Shown in pieces: positions 3,163 to 61,969 of a stretch of 64,000 nucleotides of DNA; positions within the stretch are counted from its first letter, which is position 1; every line of letters starts with the position of its first letter. The DNA comes from Candidatus Pacearchaeota archaeon. Lineage in GTDB: Archaea; Nanobdellota; Nanobdellia; UBA10117; JAFCGA01. The stretch spans positions 97,766 to 161,765 of the forward strand of contig JAFCGA010000001.1 in NCBI GenBank assembly GCA_017608345.1, read 5' to 3'. The notes beneath the pieces were generated by a model. It ran no database searches. It was not told the DNA's origin and was given only the letters and a program-made list of their open reading frames with translations. The position numbers were made by a program, and so were the translations under genes.

Positions 3163-3200
3163 ACTGGACAAATAGATAACTAAGATATAAAAAGGTTCTT

Positions 3201-3255
3201 AACCAGAAATTAAAAATTTCTGGAGTAAAACTTACTTACGTAAGTTTTATAAATC
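3201..3255 (+). promoter_or_regulatory. copy 1 of a ~55-bp promoter/hairpin module (CCAGAAAT-N5-ATTTCTGG, AAAACTTAC-TTAC-GTAAGTTTT, TTTATAAATC) upstream of hicB
   Basis: It is a direct repeat of 3758-3812. The TATA-like TTTATAAA ends ~22 nt before the hicB ATG at 3276. Confidence 0.6.
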
Positions 3256-3275
3256 TCTAAAACGCTTAGAATAAT

Positions 3276-3545
3276 ATGGCAAAGGCAAGATTTTCTAAGA
3301 ACGGAATTACATTTAACGCTGATGTATATCCCGATGAGGACGGCTTTTTTGTAGCTCGTTGTGTCCAGCTAGATATAGCTAGCCAAGGAAAAACAGTAGA
3401 CGAAGCTATTGAAAACCTAAAAGAAGCTACTGAACTATATTTAGATGCTTATCCGGAAAAAGCTGCGTTAGGAAATCGTTTCTTTGTAAGCGCTACATTT
3501 GAGGTTCTCCAGAATGCCAAAATTACCCCTCCTGTCAGGGCATAA
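3276..3545 (+). CDS. hicB: HicB-family antitoxin (UPF0150-like)
   Basis: FNADVYPDEDGFFVARCVQLDIASQGKTVDEAIENLKEATELYLD fits the HicB N-terminal fold signature. It overlaps the downstream hicA. Confidence 0.7.
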   Translation: MAKARFSKNGITFNADVYPDEDGFFVARCVQLDIASQGKTVDEAIENLKEATELYLDAYPEKAALGNRFFVSATFEVLQNAKITPPVRA

Positions 3546-3747
3546 ACTAGTAAAACTGCTCGTTAACACTGCTGGATTCAAGATAATTAGACATAAGAAA
3601 GGTAGCCATACGATTCTTGAGAAGCGCGAGGAGGGTAAAGTAATAAGTACGGTTGTGCCCTTGCATCCCACTCTCGGACGCGGTATTCTACGAGAGATAA
3701 TTAAACAATGCAAGATGACTCGAGAAGAGTTCTTCGAACTAATTTAA
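3514..3747 (+). CDS. hicA: HicA-family mRNA interferase toxin
   Basis: MPKLPLLSGHKLVKLL..GFKIIRHKKGSHTILEK...VVPLHPTLGRGILREIIKQCKMTREEFFELI carries the YcfA/HicA hallmarks (GSH, VPxH, G..r.Ilkq). The ATG at 3514 overlaps hicB by 32 nt. Confidence 0.75.
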   Translation: MPKLPLLSGHKLVKLLVNTAGFKIIRHKKGSHTILEKREEGKVISTVVPLHPTLGRGILREIIKQCKMTREEFFELI

Positions 3748-3757
3748 TAACTTTTAT

Positions 3758-3812
3758 AACCAGAAATCAAAGATTTCCGGAATAAAATTCGCTGTCGCAA
3801 GTTTTATAAATC
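3758..3812 (+). promoter_or_regulatory. copy 2 of the ~55-bp promoter/hairpin module, upstream of the SRP RNA
   Basis: AACCAGAAATCAAAGATTTCCGGAATAAAATTCGCTGTCGCAAGTTTTATAAATC aligns to 3201-3255. The TATA ends ~20 nt before the GGGCTAGG RNA start. Confidence 0.6.
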
Positions 3813-3831
3813 AAAATTCTATTGTTTCTAT

Positions 3832-4080
3832 GGGCTAGGCTGGCCGGTGCAGGTGCGCGGCTGTTACCTGAAATCGTCTTTACAGGGGCCGAAAAGCTGG
3901 GGGCGGCATTGCTATTATTTGCTGTCCTGATTGTTAGCGTCGAAGCATCGCCTTCAGGGGTGTTATGTTCATATGAATCTGGTCAGACCTTGACGGGAGC
4001 AGCCATAGTGTGCTCATGGTGTGCTCTGGAGATACGGTGTGGAGCTGGCTTTTGGGGTTAGCAGTAAGTGATGGTTTTTT
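3832..4080 (+). ncRNA. signal recognition particle RNA (archaeal 7S/SRP RNA), ends approximate
   Basis: A GC-rich island in an AT-rich genome with its own TATA box at about -25 and a terminal T6 run. It contains UGGUCAGACCUUGACGGGAGCAGCCAUAG, which matches the universally conserved helix-8 core (compare E. coli 4.5S AGGUCAGGUCCGGAAGGAAGCAGCCAAGG). The 5' GGGCUAGGCUGGCC can pair with the 3' GCUGGCUUUUGGGGUUAGC. Confidence 0.65.
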
Positions 4081-4101
4081 CAACCTCAGTGACGCCCACT
4101 T

Positions 4102-7115: not shown

Positions 7116-7584
7116 TGTCTCGCACCAGCAAGTCAGCCGGAATATCCTCATACAATAAATAATTATTCAGCGATCGAAAGTCGTATAACGCTTTGCACGC
7201 TTCCTTCAGTAGAATATAACTGCTGTGCGGTATCCTTGAAGTAAATTGATCAAATCTCGGATCATCCTCTATCCGCTCGAATTCCATGAGATTAAAGTAA
7301 ATCTCTTCAACCGGGACGCGGTGAGATCTAACATCTCTTAACACGTATTCATTAACATCTTGGTGATACATCTGAGCAGATGCTGGTCGCATTGACCTGC
7401 TCGAAGCAATTAACCCATAAACTTGCTTAGACTCGCCAGTACCAATATACTCCAGTTGTTCAAGCGTCGAGCTAAGGAAAACACCTTCCCACTTCTCGTT
7501 ACGCGCAGTAAGTAAAAAGCAAGTGGTTATATCATTCGTTTTAGTTATATGAAAGTTATGTGCCTGAGAAACAAACTCGATCAT
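7108..7584 (-). CDS. hypothetical protein (158 aa)
   Basis: First ORF of the four-gene string, with an AT-rich TATA region (TATATATAAATATT) upstream. Confidence 0.5.
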   Translation of the reverse strand: MIEFVSQAHNFHITKTNDITTCFLLTARNEKWEGVFLSSTLEQLEYIGTGESKQVYGLIASSRSMRPASAQMYHQDVNEYVLRDVRSHRVPVEEIYFNLMEFERIEDDPRFDQFTSRIPHSSYILLKEACKALYDFRSLNNYLLYEDIPADLLVRDNE

Positions 7585-12628: not shown

Positions 12629-12666
12629 ACTCTTTTACTTTAGTTATTATTGGGGTCGTAGCTCAG

Positions 12667-12703
12667 AGTCTTTCTTTCTCCTTGGGCGAGAAAGGCGAGT
12701 AAC
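12667..12703 (+). other. D-loop intron of tRNA-Phe (boundaries +/- 2 nt)
   Basis: The insert AGUCUUUCUUUCUCCUUGGGCGAGAAAGGCGAGUAAC lies between GCUCAG and UCGGGAGAGC. It has an internal hairpin CUUUCUC/GAGAAAG. Confidence 0.6.
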
Positions 12704-12747
12704 TCGGGAGAGCACTAGACTGAAGATCTAGGTGTCATGGGTTCAAA

Positions 12748-12859
12748 CGCTGCCCCTTTCTTTTAGAAAAAGAAAGGTGTAAGGTAGCCCAAAGAAAAGG
12801 CATTTACTACGCGACTTCGTCGCTCCGAATATGCCTTCGGCAACTTTGCAGCTGGAAAA
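12748..12859 (+). repeat. T-loop intron of tRNA-Phe, a member (C1) of the dispersed C-type structured repeat family
   Basis: A 10-bp hairpin CCTTTCTTTT-AGA-AAAAGAAAGG, then CCCAAAGAAAAGG and CGACTTCGTCGCTCCGAAT blocks, align with 38573-38670 and with the reverse complement of 35449-35552. The intron ends GCUGC/GCAGC pair next to the T-stem. Confidence 0.6.
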
Positions 12860-12873
12860 TCCCATCGACCCCA

Positions 12874-13305
12874 CTAAATTTTATAAAATAATTTTATGCA
12901 AAAATCCTGATCGAGGATAAGCTGTTTCTCTAAGGCTTCTTCCGGAGAAGCCCATTCAAAAGTCTTATGCTCAGTAGAATTAATCAAAATGCTTGGCTTA
13001 TCAGCTAATTTGAGATGAAACATATAGTAGACAAAATCAAACTCGGGATATTTAACATAGAGCTTATCAAAATAAGCTAACTGAGACTCAGTTATAACTA
13101 TTCCCGTTTCTTCTTTTAATTCTCTCAGCAGTGCGTTAATTGGAGATTCGCCTTCATCAATCTTACCTGCGGGAACGCCCCAAGTATTACCCTGCGGTTT
13201 GCGATCCTGTCGGTGCAATAATAGGATCTTTCCATCAAACTCCACTAGGCAGCTAACTACTTCGAATTTCGGATTGAATTCCTCGGGGCTAGCTCTAAAA
13301 ATCAT
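12874..13305 (-). CDS. NUDIX hydrolase
   Basis: Nudix box GKIDEGESPINALLRELKEETGI (GX5EX7REUXEEXGU). Confidence 0.8.
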   Translation of the reverse strand: MIFRASPEEFNPKFEVVSCLVEFDGKILLLHRQDRKPQGNTWGVPAGKIDEGESPINALLRELKEETGIVITESQLAYFDKLYVKYPEFDFVYYMFHLKLADKPSILINSTEHKTFEWASPEEALEKQLILDQDFCIKLFYKI

Positions 13306-34104: not shown

Positions 34105-34158
34105 ATGACAAAAGAATGCCTCCCCGAAATGAATATTGGTCTCATCGGCCATGTTGAG
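34105..34158 (+). pseudogene. orphan duplicate of the first 18 codons of aIF2-gamma
   Basis: ATGACAAAAGAATGCCTCCCCGAAATGAATATTGGTCTCATCGGCCATGTTGAG encodes MTKECLPEMNIGLIGHVE. The gene start encodes MVKECLPEMNIGLIGHVD. Most differences are synonymous. Confidence 0.7.
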
Positions 34159-34230
34159 GTCACTCACTTTTCCTCGTGGGTTTACAACCCGACTCGCAAA
34201 ACCGAGGCCAAAAACCAAAGAGAATAACAA
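34159..34230 (+). repeat. I-type structured insert (72 nt) between the orphan and the intact aIF2-gamma 5' ends
   Basis: GTCACTCACTTTTCC...GCAAAAC...CCAAAAACCAAAGAGAATAACAA shares its terminal blocks with the reverse complement of 61274-61362. It has nested hairpins CCTCG/CGAGG and GGGTT-TAC-AACCC. Confidence 0.6.
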
Positions 34231-35448
34231 ATGGTAAAAGAATGCTTACCCGAAATGAACATTGGCTTAATCGGCCATGTTGATCATGGAAAAACAACCC
34301 TAACTGCGGCGCTCTCTGGCAAGTGGACAGATATTCATTCTGAAGAACTTAAGCGAGGTATCACTATAAAGTTAGGATACGCAGATGTAGACATACGAAA
34401 GTGTCCCAAATGCAAAGCACAGGAAGCTTACACTACTAAAGAAAAATGTCCGAAATGCAAATCAAAGACTAAACTCCTCAGAAAAGTCTCGCTAATCGAC
34501 GCTCCTGGCCACGAAACGCTTATAGCAATCATGATCTCCGGAGCTGCAATTATGGATGGCGCGCTATTAATGATCGCTGCTAACGAGCCTTGTCCTCAGC
34601 CGCAAACCCGCGAGCATTTAGCTGCATTAAAAATTCTAGGAATCAAAAATCTAGTAATTATTCAAAATAAAGTTGATCTAGTAACTAAAGAAGAAGCTAA
34701 GAAAAATCACAAAGCTATAAACAAGTTCGTAACGGAAGCTCTCGGTTTCGAGGTTCCAATCATACCAATCTCTGCTCAGAAACAAGCAAACGTAGACTTT
34801 GTAGTCGAAGCAATTGAAGAACTTTTGAAAGCTCCAGGCAAATGCAGTGGAAATCCAGAAATGGTAATTGCACGTAGCTTCGACATTAACAAACCTGGAA
34901 CTAAAATTCCCGAACTCTGTGGCGGTGTTCTTGGCGGAGCAATTATTTCCGGCGAGTTCAAAGTCGGAGATAAACTAGAGATCAGACCTGGTCCAAAGAA
35001 CGAGAAAGGACAATGGGAACCTATAATAACGAAGCTGAACTCAATAGCTTGCGGTTGTGTATGCGTTAAATCAAAGTGCTCTGGCGGTTCTATAGCCTTT
35101 GCAACCGCTCTAGATCCTTCGATGACAAAAAGCGACTCCCTTGTAGGTAATCTAGTTGGAATTGCTGGCAAAATGCCTCCGGTTTTTCATAACCTCGAAT
35201 TAGAAACAAAGCTCTTCGGTAAAGTTATGGGCGTTAAAGAAGACACACTTATCGCACCAATAAAAGGTAACGAGCCACTTATGATTTCTGTAAGCACCTG
35301 TACAACGCTCGGAATAGTAGCTCAAGCAGGCAAAAAGATCAGATTAAATCTAAAACGCCCAGTATGCGCACATAAAGGAGATAAGGTAGCAATTTCTCGC
35401 CAGATTAGAAATCGCTGGCATTTGATTGGCTTTGGGATTATTAAATAA
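34231..35448 (+). CDS. eif2g: translation initiation factor aIF2 gamma subunit
   Basis: G-domain NIGLIGHVDHGKTTL, DAPGHE, NKVD; zinc ribbon CPKC...CPKC; 405 aa. Confidence 0.95.
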   Translation: MVKECLPEMNIGLIGHVDHGKTTLTAALSGKWTDIHSEELKRGITIKLGYADVDIRKCPKCKAQEAYTTKEKCPKCKSKTKLLRKVSLIDAPGHETLIAIMISGAAIMDGALLMIAANEPCPQPQTREHLAALKILGIKNLVIIQNKVDLVTKEEAKKNHKAINKFVTEALGFEVPIIPISAQKQANVDFVVEAIEELLKAPGKCSGNPEMVIARSFDINKPGTKIPELCGGVLGGAIISGEFKVGDKLEIRPGPKNEKGQWEPIITKLNSIACGCVCVKSKCSGGSIAFATALDPSMTKSDSLVGNLVGIAGKMPPVFHNLELETKLFGKVMGVKEDTLIAPIKGNEPLMISVSTCTTLGIVAQAGKKIRLNLKRPVCAHKGDKVAISRQIRNRWHLIGFGIIK

Positions 35449-35552
35449 AGCGAGCTGATGAGTGAGCGATTATTCCCGAGCGCAGCGAGCAATCTGCTTC
35501 TTTCTTTTTGGACGCCTAGTTTTTCTTTCTTGCAAGAAAGAAAAAATGGCTT
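35449..35552 (-). repeat. C-type structured repeat (C2, inverted orientation) inserted between the two copies of the aIF2-gamma 3' end
   Basis: Its reverse complement aligns with 38573-38670 and 12748-12859. Shared parts are the polypyrimidine/polypurine hairpin (TTTTTCTTTCTTGCAAGAAAGAAAAA), CCAAAAAGAAAG, and GCTCGCTGCGCTCGGGAATAATCGCTCACTCATCAG. Confidence 0.6.
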
Positions 35553-35594
35553 AGAAATCGCTGGCATTTAATCGGATTCGGAATAATTAAGTAA
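35553..35594 (+). pseudogene. orphan duplicate of the last 13 codons plus stop of aIF2-gamma
   Basis: AGAAATCGCTGGCATTTAATCGGATTCGGAATAATTAAGTAA encodes RNRWHLIGFGIIK*, as does 35407-35448. There are 7 differences and all are synonymous third positions. Confidence 0.7.
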
Positions 35595-35602
35595 ACTGGA
35601 TA

Positions 35603-38526: not shown

Positions 38527-38572
38527 AATTTAACTTAAGGTGGTTCCAAATAAATACTTTTCCCCTGTCAAT

Positions 38573-38670
38573 CCCTTTTCTTTGCGAAAGAAAAGGTCTA
38601 GACGTTACCCCAAAAGAAAGCAGTTAACTCCGCTTCGCTCCGAATTAAACGCTCACTCATCAGTTCGCTC
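38573..38670 (+). repeat. C-type structured repeat (C3) in the divergent intergenic region upstream of the primase
   Basis: A perfect 10-bp hairpin CCTTTTCTTT-GCG-AAAGAAAAGG (38574-38596) is followed by CCCCAAAAGAAAG, CTCCGCTTCGCTCCGAATTAAACGCTCACTCATCAG. Confidence 0.6.
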
Positions 38671-38712
38671 TAAACTACCATATTCTTATTAAACTTTCTT
38701 ACTACTAGCAGT

Positions 38713-40068
38713 ATGATGGTTCGCCAATCGGAAGTTATTAAGCATTATTCCAATCCGGCGGTTGCTGCTGAGCTAATTAGAGTATCACAAGATCGAGAGG
38801 TTAGTGTTCAACTGCGGAGTAAGGGTTACGGTAAAAGACCCTCAGTGTTGCAGTTTCCAGCTGAAGTCAAGGATCTGGTTAGATCTGGAGCTACTTCGTT
38901 TCATATGTCAGAAGAAAGATGGTCGGATCCTATGCAATTGCGGACAGATATGAATAAACGGGAGCTGAACGATCTTCGTATTGGCTGGGATTTCATAATC
39001 GATATTGATTGTCCTTGGTTTGAATACTCGACTATTGCCGCTTCGGTGTTGCTCGACGCGATTAAACAACATGGAGTGAAAGCTGCCCTTAAATTCTCAG
39101 GTAATCGTGGCTGGCATATTGGAATTCCGTTTGAAGCTTTTCCCGCAGAGATTGGTCGGCGTAAAACTGAATCTCTTTTTCCAGCAATTACTGCTACGAT
39201 TATAACTTACTTAAAGCAGTATACTGAAAGCTCGATGAGCGACAGAATAATTGAATTTGAGGGCAGTGATGTGAAAAATATTCTAAAACGTACGGGTAGG
39301 AAAAAAGAAGATTTTATGGTATCGGGCAAATTAGACATATTCACGCTTATCGAACTAGACCTTGCCCTCAGCTCCTCACGGCACTTGATAAGAGCACCGT
39401 ATTCAATACACGAGAAGACTGGTCTTATTTCGATTGTTATTGATCCGGATAAGCTGAACTACTTTAAGCGAGAGCATGCTAAACCTGAAAATATAGCGGA
39501 AATTAATGACTCTTTTCTAAATCCTTCAAAGATTGCGGCTGGTTCTGCTTCGCAATTATTGACGCAGGCTCTTGATTTTGAAGCACAAGAGAAAAGTAAA
39601 GCTAATTCTGAAAAAGTTACTGTGGAGTTCGAGCCGTTCGAAGGCAAGGTGCCCAAAGAGAAATTTCCTCCGTGCGTAAAGAATATACTAGCAGGACTAG
39701 AAGACGGTCGTAAAAGATCATTATTTGTTTTGATGAATTTCTTAAAGTCGGTCGGCTGGCCTTGGCCAGATATTGAAAATGAGGTCAGAGAATGGAACTT
39801 AAAGAACAAGCCGCCGATGAAAGACGGCTATCTTAATAGCCAGCTAAAATGGTCCAAGCAACAGAGTTCGGTGTTTCCTCCACCTAATTGCGCAGATGTT
39901 GGCCACTACAAAGATACTGGAATCTGCAAGCCAGACAAGTTCTGCGAGAAAATCAAGAATCCGCTGACGTATGTGAAAAGACAGCTAAGATTTAGTGCTA
40001 CTCAACCTAAACGTAGAAAAAAGAAGAAGTCAGAAGCTCCAGTAAAATCAGCACCAATAAAAACGTGA
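38713..40068 (+). CDS. archaeo-eukaryotic DNA primase, fused PriS-like catalytic domain plus PriL-CTD-like domain
   Basis: WDFIIDIDC and FSGNRGWHIGIPF are PriS catalytic blocks. The C-terminal FPPCVKNILAGLEDGRKRSLFVLMNFLKSVGW resembles the PriL Fe-S domain PPC(M/I) helix region. The tail is basic. Confidence 0.7.
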   Translation: MMVRQSEVIKHYSNPAVAAELIRVSQDREVSVQLRSKGYGKRPSVLQFPAEVKDLVRSGATSFHMSEERWSDPMQLRTDMNKRELNDLRIGWDFIIDIDCPWFEYSTIAASVLLDAIKQHGVKAALKFSGNRGWHIGIPFEAFPAEIGRRKTESLFPAITATIITYLKQYTESSMSDRIIEFEGSDVKNILKRTGRKKEDFMVSGKLDIFTLIELDLALSSSRHLIRAPYSIHEKTGLISIVIDPDKLNYFKREHAKPENIAEINDSFLNPSKIAAGSASQLLTQALDFEAQEKSKANSEKVTVEFEPFEGKVPKEKFPPCVKNILAGLEDGRKRSLFVLMNFLKSVGWPWPDIENEVREWNLKNKPPMKDGYLNSQLKWSKQQSSVFPPPNCADVGHYKDTGICKPDKFCEKIKNPLTYVKRQLRFSATQPKRRKKKKSEAPVKSAPIKT

Positions 40069-58320: not shown

Positions 58321-58440
58321 GTCGGGAATACCACCAGTCTACTGACTGGTGGTCCAGTGAGTGTATTCCCGAGCATGCTCAAGGATGGACCAACTGGAAC
58401 ATGCCACCGGTCTATTGACCGGTGGTCCTTGACATATTGC
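58321..58440. other. densely structured element: two paralogous 9-bp hairpins plus nested inverted repeats (candidate small RNA or structured 5' leader of the minus-strand gene)
   Basis: Hairpins CCACCAGTC-TACT-GACTGGTGG (58331-58352) and CCACCGGTC-TATT-GACCGGTGG (58404-58425); outer stem CGGGAATA/TATTCCCG (58323-30 / 58364-71); palindrome GAGCATGCTC (58371-80). A minus-strand TATA (GTAAGTTTTATAA) lies at ~58453-58465. Confidence 0.45.
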
Positions 58441-58510: not shown

Positions 58511-59185
58511 GTGAAATCCGTAATTAAGCTAACTGATGTTTATAAAACATATATGATGGGTAGCGTAGAGGTGCAAGCAGTTAGGGGAATCAATCTAGAG
58601 ATACATTCTGGCGATTTCATTATATTAATGGGACCTTCTGGCAGCGGCAAATCAACAGCTATGAATTTAATCGGCTGCTTAGATACACCATCTCAAGGAA
58701 GCATCTTTCTAGATGGACAGGATATATCACAGTTAGACGAGAGTAAGCTAGCTCAGATTCGCGGCAAGAAGATTGGATTTGTATTTCAGAAGTTTAACTT
58801 ATTACCTGCACTAACTGCTAAAGAGAACGTAACAATCCCGATGATTTTTCAAGGGATTCCGGAGTCAGAAGCTAATCAACGAGCATTAGAACTTCTAAGA
58901 TTAGTTGAATTGCAAGATAGATCACATCACAAACCAAACGAACTGTCTGGTGGCGAACAGCAGCGAGTGGCTATCGCGCGAGCCCTAGCTAATGATCCCG
59001 AAATAATACTTGCTGACGAGCCAACAGGTAATTTAGATACGAATACGGGAAATACAATTATGGAACTTCTAGTCAGTCTAAACAAAAAAGGTAAGACGCT
59101 AATAGTAGTTACTCACGATCCAGATGTGAGAAAATTTGCTAAGAATGAGAAAGTCTTTAATATACGTGATGGTAAACTTATTTAA
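58511..59185 (+). CDS. ABC transporter ATP-binding protein (MacB/LolD-type)
   Basis: Walker [11 protein letters not shown]-loop, signature [15 protein letters not shown] and Walker [12 protein letters not shown]; GTG start. Confidence 0.9.
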
Positions 59186-59186
59186 T

Positions 59187-60086
59187 ATGAAAAAAATAAT
59201 CTTTGTTTTAGCGCTACTTGCATTTATACCGCTAGCTAGCGCGGCATTGAATACTGCAGAGCTAGGCAATGTTCTTGTCGAAGAGACAAAATATGATCCT
59301 TATCCTGCTGAGCCAGGTAAATATATAACGGTTTGGATTAGCGTAGACAATCAAGGATCAACAACGATGGATAATATGTTCTTCAAGTTTGATCCAGATT
59401 ATCCTTTTCAGCTAAATCCTGGACAAAGCGGAATAGTAAGCACTGGGAAGCTGCCTCCAGGTCAAGATAAGCTAGTTGAGTATACGCTAAGAGTTGACGA
59501 AGAGGCCATGGAAGGCAGTTATGAGCTTGATTTAAAACTATGTTATGGTAGCGATTGTTCTAGCTGGGCGAGAACTTATAGCCTTCAGATATCTGTCCGT
59601 ACCGGCGGAGAGCCAAAAGTCGAGCTAGGATTAGAAGAAACCGACGTATTCAATGCAGGTAAATTAGGTGAATTCACACTTAATATTGTAAATCGAGGTC
59701 AATTAGATACTAAATTCCTAAGAGTTGCAGTTCAGGAGTCAGATAACTATGAGATTATCGGGCCTGCGGAGAAATATATTGGAGAGCTAGAATCAGACGA
59801 CTTCGAGACTGCTCAATATCAAATATTCATTGAGAATAATATCGGAAGCGAAGAAAGTGAAATGTTAGAAGTTCCGATTAAAGTAGAATACAGCGATGAG
59901 AATAATAAAGACTATTCAGATTTCCAGACAATATATCTAAAGTCATATTCTACAGAAGATTTAGAAAAGATGCATCTCGCGGCTAGCAGTCTCACTTGGA
60001 TTTGGGTTCCAATTGTAATTATTATAGGTATTAGTTATTTCATCTATATACGGGTTAAAAAGAAGAAACAGCAGAAAAAGGCATAA
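59187..60086 (+). CDS. secreted protein with a C-terminal TM anchor, encoded between the ABC ATPase and permease (299 aa)
   Basis: The ATG at 59187 lies just after the ATPase stop. It has a signal peptide MKKIIFVLALLAFIPLASA and the C-terminal WIWVPIVIIIGISYFIYIRVKKKKQQKKA. Confidence 0.6.
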   Translation: MKKIIFVLALLAFIPLASAALNTAELGNVLVEETKYDPYPAEPGKYITVWISVDNQGSTTMDNMFFKFDPDYPFQLNPGQSGIVSTGKLPPGQDKLVEYTLRVDEEAMEGSYELDLKLCYGSDCSSWARTYSLQISVRTGGEPKVELGLEETDVFNAGKLGEFTLNIVNRGQLDTKFLRVAVQESDNYEIIGPAEKYIGELESDDFETAQYQIFIENNIGSEESEMLEVPIKVEYSDENNKDYSDFQTIYLKSYSTEDLEKMHLAASSLTWIWVPIVIIIGISYFIYIRVKKKKQQKKA

Positions 60087-61273
60087 TGATCGAGTATCTA
60101 AAGATAGCCGTAAGGAATATTTCTCAGCGGAAACTTAGAAGCTGGCTAACTATTATTGGTGTAATTATCGGTATTGGCGCGATTATTTCTCTTATTTCCA
60201 TTTCAAACGGAATGGAGCATGCTATTACAGAACAGTTTGAATCATTTGATACCGATCTTATAACTATTACTCCTTCTAATTTTAGAGGTCCGGGAAGTTC
60301 CTCAGGGGAATTCACAGATAAAGAAGTTGATGCGATTCGTAAAATCTCTGGACTAAAACATGTAACTCCGATGATTATGAGTAGTGCAAAAATCAGTTTT
60401 CATAACCAAGATAAATATTTATCTGTCATGGCGTACGAGGCCACTTCGGAGTCAGAAGATATGTGGGAGGATTTTGGGTTCGAGATAAATAAAGGCCGCT
60501 TTCCGCGAGAAGGTCAAGGTAAAGTAGTTGGGTTGGGCGCAAGGGCTGCAACTGATTTATTTGATGATGAACTTCACGTTAGAAATAATATCTACATTGA
60601 TGATATTAAATTTAAGGTTACGGGAATAGCCGATGAAATAGGCAATGCTCAAGATGACAATGCTATATTCATGCCCCTTGATACTGCTAAAGAGTTATTC
60701 AATAAAACAAATTATGGATTTATTATTGCTGTCGTAAACGAAGGCGTTGATGTAGATAAAATGGCTGATAGAGTTGAGAAAAAGATGAGTCGGCTTCGCG
60801 ATGAAGAAGAATTTCAAGTCATGACTGCTACTGAGATGCTAGCAACAGTCGGTACGATCCTCGGAATATTACAGCTCGTATTAGTGGGAATCGCAGGGAT
60901 TAGCTTGTTGGTCGGAGCAGTTGGTATTATGAATACGATGTACACATCAGTTATGGAACGAACGCGAGAGATTGGCGTGATGAAAGCCATCGGAGCTACA
61001 AACAGATCGATTATGACTATATTCTTATTTGAAGCCGGCATTATTGGGATAATTGGTGGAACAGCTGGTGCAGCGATAGGTACAGGGATTGCTCAGGTAG
61101 TCGGATTCGTAGCTTCAAATATGGCTTTACCGCTACCATTAAAAGTAATTATCGAATGGAAACTAATCGGCTACTGTATTGCATTTGCTTTCGGATTGGG
61201 CGCCTTAAGCGGATTCTTGCCTGCTAGGTCAGCTGCTAAAATGAAGCCTGCGGATAGTCTTAGGTATGAATAA
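60086..61273 (+). CDS. ABC transporter permease, MacB/FtsX family
   Basis: It has an N-terminal TM helix, a large extracytoplasmic domain, and a C-terminal FtsX-type three-TM bundle (GAVGIMNTMYTSVMERTREIGVMKAIGA). The ATG shares one base with the upstream stop. Confidence 0.85.
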   Translation: MIEYLKIAVRNISQRKLRSWLTIIGVIIGIGAIISLISISNGMEHAITEQFESFDTDLITITPSNFRGPGSSSGEFTDKEVDAIRKISGLKHVTPMIMSSAKISFHNQDKYLSVMAYEATSESEDMWEDFGFEINKGRFPREGQGKVVGLGARAATDLFDDELHVRNNIYIDDIKFKVTGIADEIGNAQDDNAIFMPLDTAKELFNKTNYGFIIAVVNEGVDVDKMADRVEKKMSRLRDEEEFQVMTATEMLATVGTILGILQLVLVGIAGISLLVGAVGIMNTMYTSVMERTREIGVMKAIGATNRSIMTIFLFEAGIIGIIGGTAGAAIGTGIAQVVGFVASNMALPLPLKVIIEWKLIGYCIAFAFGLGALSGFLPARSAAKMKPADSLRYE

Positions 61274-61362
61274 AGCTAGAGCTAGCCATTATGGCTCTTT
61301 GATTTTTTGATCTCACTTTTGCCGACCGAAGTATGAAGAGGGAAAAGTGAGTGATGAATCTA
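61274..61362 (-). repeat. I-type structured insert (89 nt, inverted orientation) between the two copies of the permease 3' end
   Basis: The reverse complement reads ...TCATCACTCACTTTTCC...GGCAAAAG...TCAAAAAATCAAAGAGCCATAA..., sharing its terminal blocks with 34159-34230. It contains a 9-bp hairpin CTCACTTTT/AAAAGTGAG. Confidence 0.6.
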
Positions 61363-61386
61363 GCGGATAGTCTTAGGTATGAGTAA
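61363..61386 (+). repeat. second copy of the permease 3' end (GCGGATAGTCTTAGGTATGAGTAA), overlapping the stop of the convergent gene
   Basis: 23 of 24 nt are identical to 61250-61273, and the single change GAA>GAG is synonymous. The last codons and stop of minus-strand ORF 61373-61969 lie inside it. Confidence 0.7.
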
Positions 61387-61969
61387 TCAAGGACTCCATA
61401 ACTATTGGTTTAATTTTCTCCCGCATTATAGCATAAACGACTTCAAATAATTGATTCTCAGTTAGAATTACTCTTGTAGCGCGTTTAGGCTTAGGAAGCA
61501 CTTTATAGATACATTCGCGTAATGATTCCGTCCGCCAGTATCTCCTATCTCCCTCGACCTTGTGCACAATTACATACCTACCTTTCTTATCTGTCGAATC
61601 TGCTTCTAACATAAGCACTACAGGGATACTTCCAGGATCAAATAGTTTATTTATCTCCCTAAGCGTCGGGAATTCTCCTGCTTGATATTGCTTATCCCAA
61701 GCACCACATAAAATATATTCCTCGGGATAAAGGCTAGCAAAATTATCTGGTGCAACAGAAGTTATGAAATTCCCATAATAAGGTCCAGTTAAGGCGTATT
61801 TTCGGTCTAATTTAGCCAAAACAATCTTGCCCGCAAGATCATCCCGACCGCCGCAAACAACTTTTATGTCTCGTTTGGGCGTTCCAAGCCAGACTCCGAT
61901 TCCATGCTTATCCACTATCTCTTGTATATACGCTCGTCCAAGCGTGCCAGGAATATCTTTTCTAATCAT
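61373..61969 (-). CDS. hypothetical protein (198 aa)
   Basis: ORF only. Confidence 0.5.
   Translation of the reverse strand: MIRKDIPGTLGRAYIQEIVDKHGIGVWLGTPKRDIKVVCGGRDDLAGKIVLAKLDRKYALTGPYYGNFITSVAPDNFASLYPEEYILCGAWDKQYQAGEFPTLREINKLFDPGSIPVVLMLEADSTDKKGRYVIVHKVEGDRRYWRTESLRECIYKVLPKPKRATRVILTENQLFEVVYAIMREKIKPIVMESLITHT

What the first reader, a model, noticed from the sequence alone, without database searches (positions are those of the whole stretch)
61250..61386. Third gene-terminal duplication: an 89-nt insert splits two convergently overlapping genes while keeping both 3' ends intact
Seen: the permease ends ...GCGGATAGTCTTAGGTATGAATAA (61250-61273). The same 24 nt, with GAA>GAG (silent), recur at 61363-61386 after an 89-nt insert. 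The convergent minus-strand ORF (61373-61969) takes its last four sense codons and stop from inside the second copy. Removing the insert and one copy reconstructs two genes whose 3' ends overlap by ~14 nt. The duplication therefore looks like the mechanism that allowed an insertion without truncating either gene. The insert is the inverted homolog of the aIF2-gamma 5' insert: both share TCACTCACTTTTCC at one end and AAAAA(C/T)CAAAGAG at the other.
Basis: partly seen in the sequence, partly recalled or inferred. Interest (0 to 1): 0.75.

Follow-up and report, generated by a model that had tools for sequence, protein, structure and literature searches.

The report
Gene-end duplication around a hairpin spacer
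An 89-base non-coding hairpin spacer separates two converging genes of a DPANN (Woesearchaeota-like) archaeon, and the last 24 bases of one gene are repeated beyond it so that both genes keep intact ends; a related genome has the same design at the same site.

Summary
61250-61273 recurs at 61363-61386 (23/24 identical) after an 89-nt insert, "B". The convergent 198-aa gene takes its last four codons and stop from the second copy. Deleting B plus one copy gives a 14-nt overlap. Repeats this strong were absent from five simulated windows.

B is homologous to the insert in front of aIF2-gamma, "A" (1 of 5000 shuffles reach the score). No further copy turned up in the genome, metagenome or viral collections, but the source contig is in neither the genome nor the metagenome set.

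The key new result is L051, the contig with the closest permease homolog (67%). Its last 27 permease nt are repeated (25/27) around a 316-nt insert. That insert holds an 80-aa ORF and a hairpin homologous to B's, with one compensatory base-pair change.

The window also has other repeat-flanked inserts with other cargo. The two aIF2-gamma repeat pairs differ almost only at synonymous sites, so they look like two functional alleles, not a decaying target-site duplication.

My best reading (0.4) is a recombinational insertion that carried its own copy of the gene end, like a miniature e14-in-icd. The main rival is a transposon-like insertion with a staggered cut. This is a new variant of a known kind, of moderate interest.

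The parts
60086..61273 (+). FtsX/MacB-type ABC-transporter permease gene. It is the last gene of the operon 58511-61273.
   Evidence: Pfam MacB_PCD 3e-34 and FtsX 3.3e-24. Its C-terminus ...KPADSLRYE* is the family's canonical end.
61250..61273 (+). Repeat copy 1: the last 7 codons plus the stop of the permease. The extended repeat starts at 61241.
61274..61362 (.). Insert B, an 89-nt non-coding spacer element. It is homologous, in inverted orientation, to insert A (34158-34230).
   Evidence: No Rfam match.
61278..61308 (+). Hairpin AGAGCTAGCCATTATGGCTCT followed by TTGATTTTTT. This is a terminator-like site directly behind the permease stop codon. It contains the block CTCTTTGATTTTT (61295-61307).
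   Evidence: Terminator scan; fold; coordinates.
61312..61351 (.). Second hairpin. The stem CTCACTTTT (61312-61320) pairs with AAAAGTGAG (61343-61351). It is the conserved core of the A/B/L051 element family.
   Evidence: Fold: -25.6 kcal/mol, z = -2.6. The motif CTC[AG][CG]TTTT...AAAAG[CT]GAG is found only in B, in A and in the L051 insert.
61363..61386 (.). Repeat copy 2 (extended repeat from 61354). Its minus strand supplies codons I-T-H-T and the stop of the 198-aa gene.
61373..61969 (-). 198-aa gene of a conserved uncharacterised family. The conserved part ends at ...PIVMESL, exactly at the edge of copy 2.
   Evidence: 126 remote homologs of about 190 aa; alignment A1. Confident model, pLDDT 87, with only partial OB/S1-like fold matches.
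34158..34230 (+). Insert A, sister copy of B. It lies between a 53-nt relic of the aIF2-gamma 5' end (34105-34157) and the complete gene (from 34231).
35450..35550 (+). Insert C, from a different element family. It lies between the aIF2-gamma 3' end (35405-35449) and a 45-nt relic copy (35551-35595).

Best explanation
What it is (shown). B is an 89-nt non-coding spacer. It belongs to a small family of hairpin elements with a pyrimidine-rich arm CTCRSTTTT paired to a purine-rich arm AAAAGYGAG. B begins at the first base after the permease stop codon. A second copy of the permease's last 24 (possibly 33) nt lies on its far side. The convergent 198-aa gene used to end inside those bases. Now each gene owns one copy and both are complete.

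What it does now (inferred). It uncouples two overlapping convergent genes. It also gives the ABC-transporter operon a hairpin plus T6 termination signal.

How it arose (inferred; my preferred mechanism). This was not a transposase cut. A DNA segment that already carried 'permease end + element' recombined into the chromosome. The short conserved coding terminus served as the region of homology, either by a single crossover of a small circle or by a homologous join on one side and an illegitimate join on the other. That leaves the terminus on both sides of the insert, just as attL and attR flank a prophage that integrates into a gene end and brings a replacement end (e14 in icd). The repeat stops exactly at the ORF boundary because homology between donor and recipient stops there.
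For: 1. Structure and significance of the repeat, and completeness of both genes.
2. Same design at the orthologous site in an independent assembly. In L051 the permease end at 7133-7159 is repeated at 7476-7502 (25/27). The insert has different cargo (an 80-aa ORF). It carries the hairpin CTCGCTTTT-ctt-AAAAGCGAG 9 nt before copy 2, against 11 nt in B, with a compensatory A:T to G:C change.
3. Repeat-flanked inserts with unrelated cargo point to a host-level route rather than an element-encoded one:
   - a hicBA cassette between 71-nt repeats;
   - element E between two 28-nt hairpins that differ by compensatory changes;
   - C;
   - a 139-aa gene between 35-nt promoter-like repeats in L051.
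4. In every coding case (A, B, C, L051) one repeat border coincides with the start or stop codon.
5. The sister repeats look like two functional alleles. In the aIF2-gamma 3' pair, 7 of 7 differences are third codon positions and silent, although the relic lies in no ORF with a start codon. In the 5' pair, 6 of 8 differences are silent. Under random substitution P = 5e-6 and 6.5e-5.
6. The L051 element matches A better than B in the hand-aligned 18-nt block ending in the stem's 5' arm (16/18 vs 12/18, read). This argues against simple vertical inheritance at this one site.
7. Precedent: icd, e14 and the icdC fragment, which differ by synonymous changes (PMC13626634).
Against: - For B itself the two copies differ at a single base, so nothing distinguishes an imported copy from one duplicated in place.
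- No donor, no circular form, no integrase and no empty site was seen.
- Homology of 24-53 nt at 84-96% identity is short for homologous recombination. The longest perfect runs are 19, 19 and 14 nt.
- No clear microhomology was seen at the inner junctions.
- In the window and in L051 the two copies within each genome are far more alike (1/24 and 2/27 differences) than the orthologous copies between genomes (8/24). That requires either two independent events at the same site or gene conversion.
- The statistical support for L051-A/B homology taken alone is weak (E 0.15-0.7). It rests on position and on stem covariation.
Confidence: 0.4

Rival explanations
1. Transposon-like insertion. A/B is a miniature non-autonomous mobile element. 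Its insertion made staggered cuts 24-53 nt apart, and fill-in created the repeat as a target-site duplication. Selection then kept only insertions whose duplication spared both genes.
For: - There is a repeated element, with A and B in the window and a relative in L051.
- Each copy is flanked by direct repeats of target sequence.
- B's repeat is nearly perfect (23/24), as expected for a young duplication.
- The L051 copy lies at the same site. It matches A better than B in the hand-aligned 18-nt block ending in the stem's 5' arm (16/18 vs 12/18), which suggests mobility.
Against: - The element has no terminal inverted repeats.
- Repeat length is not constant (24, 27 and 53 nt).
- Inserts with unrelated cargo have the same kind of repeat.
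- Sister-family copies D and the tRNA-intron copy have no repeat.
- The aIF2-gamma repeats differ only at function-preserving sites, which neutral decay of a relic does not predict.
- No transposase gene was identified; the flanking genes checked are a permease, a 198-aa gene with no family match and a weak Nuc_deoxyrib_tr match.
- No copies were found in three public collections.
Confidence: 0.25
2. An old local duplication. A short tandem duplication of the overlapping gene ends arose once in a common ancestor of the window organism and L051 and resolved the overlap. Spacer sequence (hairpin, ORFs) accumulated between the copies later. Gene conversion keeps the two copies alike within each genome.
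For: - Two genomes share the same junction, directly after the stop codon, and the same hairpin next to copy 2.
- GAA in copy 1 versus GAG in copy 2 is shared by both genomes.
Against: - Seven sites group the copies by genome and only one groups them by position.
- No conversion is seen in the aIF2-gamma repeats, which are 15% diverged.
- The neighbouring gene differs: the 198-aa gene in the window and the 143-aa ortholog in L051.
- No relative shows the repeat without an insert.
Confidence: 0.15
3. Copy 2 is the last remnant of a second, paralogous permease gene. That gene was deleted except where it overlapped the convergent gene.
For: FtsX permease genes often come in pairs (my own knowledge). 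The family's C-terminal motif is highly conserved.
Against: - 23/24 DNA identity is too high for an old paralog.
- No other permease remnant exists in B.
- In L051 the space holds an unrelated 80-aa ORF.
- This idea cannot explain the nested aIF2-gamma arrangement.
Confidence: 0.05
4. B is an RNA-level element, either a bulge-helix-bulge (BHB) intron or a small RNA gene. The repeated ends would let spliced and unspliced mRNA encode the same protein.
For: - The sister family C/D is homologous to the 112-nt T-loop intron of a tRNA-Phe gene.
- Relatives carry a 31-33-nt BHB intron in aIF2-gamma only 5 nt from where A's repeat ends.
- Both repeat copies of A and C look selected for coding.
Against: - No acceptable BHB motif joins equivalent positions of the two copies for A, B or C.
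- B lies outside the permease ORF.
- There is no Rfam match, and no C/D boxes in a usable arrangement.
- A/B shows no significant similarity to C.
Confidence: 0.05
5. Assembly artefact. The repeat would come from misjoined strain variants.
For: The contig comes from a metagenome. The sister repeats look like two alleles.
Against: - The same architecture occurs in an independent assembly from another sample (L051).
- The shared perfect runs (14-19 nt) are shorter than usual assembly k-mers.
- The inserts are not explained by a strain bubble.
Confidence: 0.02

Closest known systems
[quoted passage not shown]
   Same: The gene terminus is present on both sides of the insert. The functional gene runs into the copy next to the insert, and a displaced fragment lies beyond. 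The copies differ by synonymous changes, as seen here for the aIF2-gamma repeats (PMC13626634).
   Different: e14 is a 15-kb prophage with its own recombinase and a fixed att site. B is 89 nt and non-coding, with no recombinase found. Related inserts use different gene ends, so any targeting would have to come from the carried homology.
MITEs and insertion sequences with target-site duplications, including IS families said to make long variable duplications such as IS1634 (recalled from memory, not checked here)
   Same: A short, non-coding, repeated element flanked by direct repeats of the target sequence.
   Different: B has no terminal inverted repeats. Repeat length varies from 24 to 53 nt. 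Copies of the sister family lack repeats. Repeat differences are not neutral. The copy number seen so far is very low.
Archaeal bulge-helix-bulge (BHB) introns in tRNA, and in cbf5 pre-mRNA (PMC2738675)
   Same: Both are short hairpin-rich inserts. The sister family C/D is homologous to a tRNA-Phe intron in this window. Relatives have a BHB intron in aIF2-gamma next to the site of A.
   Different: B has no BHB motif at its borders. It lies outside the ORF and needs no splicing. Homology of A/B to any intron is not shown.
Bidirectional terminator hairpins and REP-like intergenic palindromes between convergent genes
   Same: B sits between convergent genes. It has two stable hairpins and a T6 run directly behind the stop codon.
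   Different: Ordinary terminators are not flanked by a duplicated coding terminus, and they do not recur upstream of another gene, as A does.
Designed separation of overlapping genes by duplicating the overlap in recoded synthetic genomes (my own knowledge)
   Same: The logic is the same: duplicating the shared bases gives each gene a private copy.
   Different: Here it is natural, and a spacer element lies between the copies.

Membership tests
MITE / transposon-derived element | Terminal inverted repeats | tested here: not met
   The ends of B (AGCTAGAGCTAGCC... and ...GTGATGAATCTA) and of A show no inverted similarity. The hairpins are internal.
MITE / transposon-derived element | Target-site duplication of characteristic, constant length | tested here: not met
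   24 (33) nt for B, 53 nt for A and 27 nt in L051.
MITE / transposon-derived element | Many dispersed copies in the genome | tested here: inconclusive
   There are two copies in 64 kb and one in L051. No true match was found in the genome, metagenome or viral collections. The source contig (244,767 nt) is in neither the genome nor the metagenome collection, so the rest of the genome was not searched.
Integrative element with att duplication inside a gene (e14-icd type) | Target gene terminus present at both junctions, with the gene restored by the insert-proximal copy | tested here: met
   The same holds in L051.
Integrative element with att duplication inside a gene (e14-icd type) | The two copies are different functional alleles (synonymous differences) | tested here: inconclusive
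   Met for the sister inserts A and C. B has only one difference in its 24-nt core.
Integrative element with att duplication inside a gene (e14-icd type) | Site-specific recombinase encoded by the element | tested here: not met
   An 89-nt insert has no room for a gene. The flanking 198-aa gene has no match in Pfam, PHROGs, NCBIfam or PDB sequences and only partial OB-fold similarity.
Archaeal BHB intron | Bulge-helix-bulge motif (3-nt bulge, 4-bp helix, 3-nt bulge) at the two borders | tested here: not met
   My own scan found only weak motifs (outer and inner helices of 2-3 bp) around B, and they give a 115-nt out-of-frame excision. The same scan recovers the introns of L004, L005 and tRNA-Phe.
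Archaeal BHB intron | Removal restores a conserved gene product | tested here: not met
   The permease is already complete before B, so no splicing is required.
Intrinsic-terminator-like intergenic hairpin | Stable hairpin followed by a T run just after a stop codon | tested here: met
   61278-61298 followed by TTGATTTTTT; fold z = -2.6. Termination activity itself cannot be tested with these tools.
Known RNA families (C/D box sRNA and others) | Match to an Rfam covariance model | tested here: not met
   No match in 61200-61400 at gathering score or at E <= 5.

The most novel reading that the evidence does not exclude
These Woesearchaeota-like genomes may host a class of integrase-free mini-cassettes. 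Each would be a hairpin element, bare or with a small ORF or toxin-antitoxin cargo, that moves between related genomes. It would carry a recoded copy of a conserved ORF terminus or promoter and recombine through that copy, so every insertion is flanked by a function-preserving duplicate. The elements may be related to mobile bulge-helix-bulge introns: the C family equals a tRNA-Phe intron, and A sits next to the aIF2-gamma intron site of relatives.
Probability: 0.2. Interest if true: 0.8.

Novelty: new variant of a known kind. Interest (0 to 1): 0.55.

Why it matters
DPANN genomes are extremely compact, and gene ends often overlap. It is unclear how new DNA can enter such genomes without destroying a neighbour.

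This locus and its relatives show one recurring answer: the boundary sequence is present on both sides of the insert, so both neighbours keep working. That boundary can be a coding terminus, a promoter or a hairpin.

If the route is homology-guided, as the allele-like repeats around aIF2-gamma suggest, it would be a simple recombinase-independent way for small elements and gene cassettes to spread among related archaea. It would also leave a signature that annotation pipelines currently miss or misread as pseudogene fragments.

The possible link to intron-like elements would bear on how archaeal introns spread.

Tried and rejected
1. Copies elsewhere. The two-block pattern CACTCACTTTTC-N(25-50)-AAAAYCAAAG gave two chance hits in genome contigs and none in viral contigs. 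It gave 45 hits in metagenome contigs. By eye most of these are a multi-copy repeat that carries telomere-like AACCCTAAA units (probably eukaryotic); the rest look like chance. The source contig was not retrieved from either collection. The look-up of encoding contigs holds none of its proteins.
2. BHB splicing of 'insert + one copy' for A, B and C: no convincing motif.
3. Hammerhead or C/D-box reading of the CTGATGAGTGAGCG core of C/D: helix II/GAAA and the D box are absent when read by eye, and Rfam finds nothing.
4. Diversity-generating-retroelement-type repeats: mismatches are not confined to adenines of one copy.
5. A third, decayed copy of the permease end beside the 143-aa gene, and a diverged copy downstream of the L053 permease: neither scores above shuffles.
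6. Homology of A/B with C/D/E beyond a shared GTGAG: not significant.
7. The 198-aa gene as an orphan or chimeric ORF: rejected. It has 126 remote homologs, and its conserved end lies at the repeat border. Its best homolog is not next to a permease.
8. The 198-aa protein as a recombinase or nuclease: no support.
9. Microhomology at the inner repeat junctions: none convincing by inspection.
10. Which aIF2-gamma repeat copy is ancestral, using relatives as outgroup: synonymous sites are saturated and give no signal (reading).
Full report
**Setting**

The window has 39% G+C. It encodes archaeal proteins, including aIF2-gamma and a fused PriS-PriL primase. The best named relatives of aIF2-gamma and of the permease are Woesearchaeota, Nanoarchaeota and other DPANN archaea. 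The proteins are singletons in a 15-billion-protein collection and come from one 244,767-nt contig. That contig is in neither the genome nor the metagenome collection available here.

**Observation**

- GCGGATAGTCTTAGGTATGAATAA (61250-61273) recurs at 61363-61386 with one silent change, after an 89-nt insert that I call B. A weaker extension brings the repeat to 33 nt.
- The permease (Pfam MacB_PCD + FtsX) ends with the family's canonical ...LRYE*.
- The 198-aa minus-strand gene has its stop at 61373-61375 and its last four codons inside copy 2. Deleting B and one copy gives a 14-nt overlap.
- The window holds 13 direct repeats of this strength at distances of 25-800 nt. Five order-2 Markov simulations held none.

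**The 198-aa gene is real**

A word-based search found only the protein itself. A full HMMER scan found 126 remote homologs of about 190 aa. In the alignment the family ends ...P(I/V)xME(P/S)L plus a few residues.

The window protein ends ...PIVMESL-ITHT*. Its conserved part therefore stops exactly at the border of copy 2, and the tail is read from the repeat.

The function is unknown. There are no Pfam, PHROG, NCBIfam or PDB sequence hits. A confident model (pLDDT 87) gives only partial OB/S1-like matches. Nothing suggests a recombinase.

**The insert**

B folds into two hairpins.
- The first (61278-61298) is followed by TTGATTTTTT and scores as a terminator-like site directly behind the stop codon.
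- The second pairs CTCACTTTT (61312-61320) with AAAAGTGAG (61343-61351).

B, read on the minus strand, aligns with insert A (34158-34230). They share TCACTCACTTTTCC exactly, and AAAAA(C/AT)CAAAGAG at matching spacing. Only 1 of 5000 dinucleotide shuffles reaches the real score.

No further copy exists in the window. Rfam has no match. There are no terminal inverted repeats.

**Sister cases in the window**
- A lies between a 53-nt relic of the aIF2-gamma 5' end, which keeps the TATA-like box and the leaderless start, and the complete gene.
- Insert C (35450-35550) lies between the gene's 3' end and a 45-nt relic.
- Element E (58356-58400) lies between two 28-nt hairpins that differ by compensatory changes.
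- A hicBA cassette lies between two 71-nt repeats. The second repeat holds the TATA-like box just upstream of an SRP RNA gene.

C belongs to a different family from A/B. It is homologous to D, in the divergent promoter region 38560-38680 (0 of 5000 shuffles). Through D it is homologous to the 112-nt T-loop intron of an unannotated tRNA-Phe gene. D and the intron copy have no flanking repeats. Repeats are therefore not an obligatory by-product of these elements.

**The repeats around aIF2-gamma are not decaying duplicates**

In the 3' pair all 7 differences are third codon positions and silent, yet the relic lies in no ORF with a start codon. In the 5' pair 6 of 8 differences are silent, including two CTC/TTA leucine pairs. 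Random substitutions would give this with P = 5e-6 and 6.5e-5.

Both copies look like functional alleles that diverged in different genomes. This is the pattern of a gene end supplied by an incoming element, as with icd, e14 and icdC (PMC13626634).

The two pairs flank one gene and have equal divergence (84% and 85% identity). A single event may explain both: a foreign copy, A - gene - C, replacing the interior of the resident gene.

**Relatives of the aIF2-gamma locus**

L004 is syntenic with the window: aIF2-gamma at 77% identity, a convergent 498-aa versus 561-aa gene, then a 384-aa versus 387-aa gene. It has no C insert, and its two convergent genes overlap by 8 nt.

L004 and L005 carry 33- and 31-nt intervening sequences between the codons for G-H and V-D-H-G-K-T-T. 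These fold as bulge-helix-bulge (BHB) motifs, and their removal restores NIGLIGHVDHGKTT. That site is 5 nt from the inner end of A's repeat. This is suggestive, but I found no usable BHB in A.

**Relatives of the permease locus (the decisive part)**

L051 holds the closest permease homolog (67% identity). It comes from an independent sample and assembly.
- The last 27 nt of its permease gene (7133-7159) recur at 7476-7502, 25/27 identical, with the same GAA/GAG difference.
- The 316-nt insert holds a promoter-like TATA, an 80-aa cysteine-rich ORF and the hairpin CTCGCTTTT-ctt-AAAAGCGAG. The hairpin ends 9 nt before copy 2; in B the distance is 11 nt.
- Relative to B's stem, one base pair has changed on both sides (A:T to G:C). 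A has CTCGGTTTT / AAAAGTGAG. The motif occurs nowhere else in the window or in 48 kb of related loci.
- Sequence statistics alone are weak (E 0.15-0.7). Position and covariation carry the argument.
- The convergent gene in L051 is the ortholog of the window's 143-aa gene (60% identity), not of the 198-aa gene. It reads through copy 2 to a stop in the hairpin loop.

Other relatives:
- L055 has a plain 38-nt overlap of the permease with an unrelated convergent gene.
- L052 and L054 have a same-strand neighbour and no repeat.
- No relative shows the repeat without an insert.

**What this means**

Within each genome the two copies are nearly identical (1/24 and 2/27 differences). The orthologous copies differ at 8 of 24 positions between the genomes. 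There are two possible readings: the same kind of event happened independently at the same gene end in both lineages, or one old event is kept homogeneous by gene conversion.

The L051 element matches A better than B in the hand-aligned 18-nt block ending in the stem's 5' arm (16/18 vs 12/18; read). The neighbouring genes also differ between the two genomes. Both points favour independent events by a mobile family.

Five things point to a host recombination route rather than a transposase cut:
- the variable repeat length;
- the varied cargo;
- the exact coincidence of one repeat border with the ORF boundary;
- the repeat-less copies in the C family;
- the allele-like aIF2-gamma repeats.

In that route the incoming DNA already carried the conserved boundary sequence. 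I hold this at about 0.4. The staggered-cut model stands at 0.25 and an old tandem duplication with conversion at 0.15.

The descriptive core is much more secure, at about 0.85: a real insert, a real duplication, both genes preserved, an element family, and recurrence in a relative.

**Present function (inferred)**

B separates two converging transcription units and supplies a hairpin plus T6 signal for the transporter operon. Oligo-T tracts are the known archaeal termination signal (my own knowledge).

**Novelty**

Duplicated gene ends around integrated elements are well known. So are short repeated intergenic hairpins and BHB introns. Three things are unusual here:
- the miniature, recombinase-free form;
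- its recurrence with different cargo at ORF boundaries in compact DPANN genomes;
- the possible link to intron-like elements.

I rate it a new variant of a known kind.

Noticed in passing
window 12652-12875 (+): An unannotated tRNA-Phe(GAA) gene with two non-canonical introns, about 35 nt in the D-loop (12669-12703) and 112 nt in the T-loop (12748-12859). ARAGORN and Rfam miss it, but after removing both inserts ARAGORN folds a perfect cloverleaf. The T-loop intron is homologous to elements D and C.
   Followed up: yes
L005 10016-10046; L004 2555-2587: The closest aIF2-gamma genes are interrupted by 31- and 33-nt sequences between the G-H and V-D-H-G-K-T-T codons. These form bulge-helix-bulge motifs (central helix UUGG:CCAA), and their removal restores the conserved P-loop. 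They are candidate mRNA introns; cbf5 is the archaeal mRNA BHB intron described in the paper found (PMC2738675). Gene callers truncated both genes.
   Followed up: partly
window 34105-34233: The 53-nt relic of the aIF2-gamma 5' end keeps the TATA-like box and a leaderless ATG. It opens a 40-codon ORF that runs through insert A and stops (TAA, 34225-34227) 3 nt before the real ATG. This suggests that aIF2-gamma is now translated by termination-reinitiation coupling.
   Followed up: partly
window 3185-3812 and 3828-4101: A hicB/hicA toxin-antitoxin pair (3276-3747) lies between two 71-nt repeats (77% identical, two hairpins each, ending in TTTTATAAATC). The second repeat sits directly upstream of an archaeal SRP RNA gene, which scores 95 bits, 1.5 bits below Rfam's gathering cut-off. 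The syntenic relative L004 has a hicBA pair at a different place without repeats.
   Followed up: partly
window 58328-58428: Two copies of a 28-nt palindromic hairpin (86% identical, with a compensatory A:T to G:C change) flank a 45-nt insert whose start (AGTGAGTGTATTCCCGAGC) resembles element C. They lie in a divergent promoter region.
   Followed up: partly
window 38560-38680: Element D is a full-length inverted homolog of insert C. It lies between the divergently transcribed 387-aa gene and the primase gene, without flanking repeats.
   Followed up: yes
L051 1498-2010 and 7080-7130: A 139-aa gene is flanked by 35-nt promoter-like repeats (80% identical). Separately, the L051 permease gene has a frame break about 60 nt before its end, so the gene call stops early.
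   Followed up: no
window 38713-40068 (+): A single 451-aa protein matches both the small and the large primase subunit families, so it is a fused PriS-PriL.
   Followed up: no
L006-L050 (metagenome hits): The search pattern accidentally matches a multi-copy repeat of about 130 nt in a few JGI samples (Ga0228710/11, Ga0315913-15). The repeat carries telomere-like AACCCTAAA units and is probably eukaryotic. It is unrelated to the finding.
   Followed up: no
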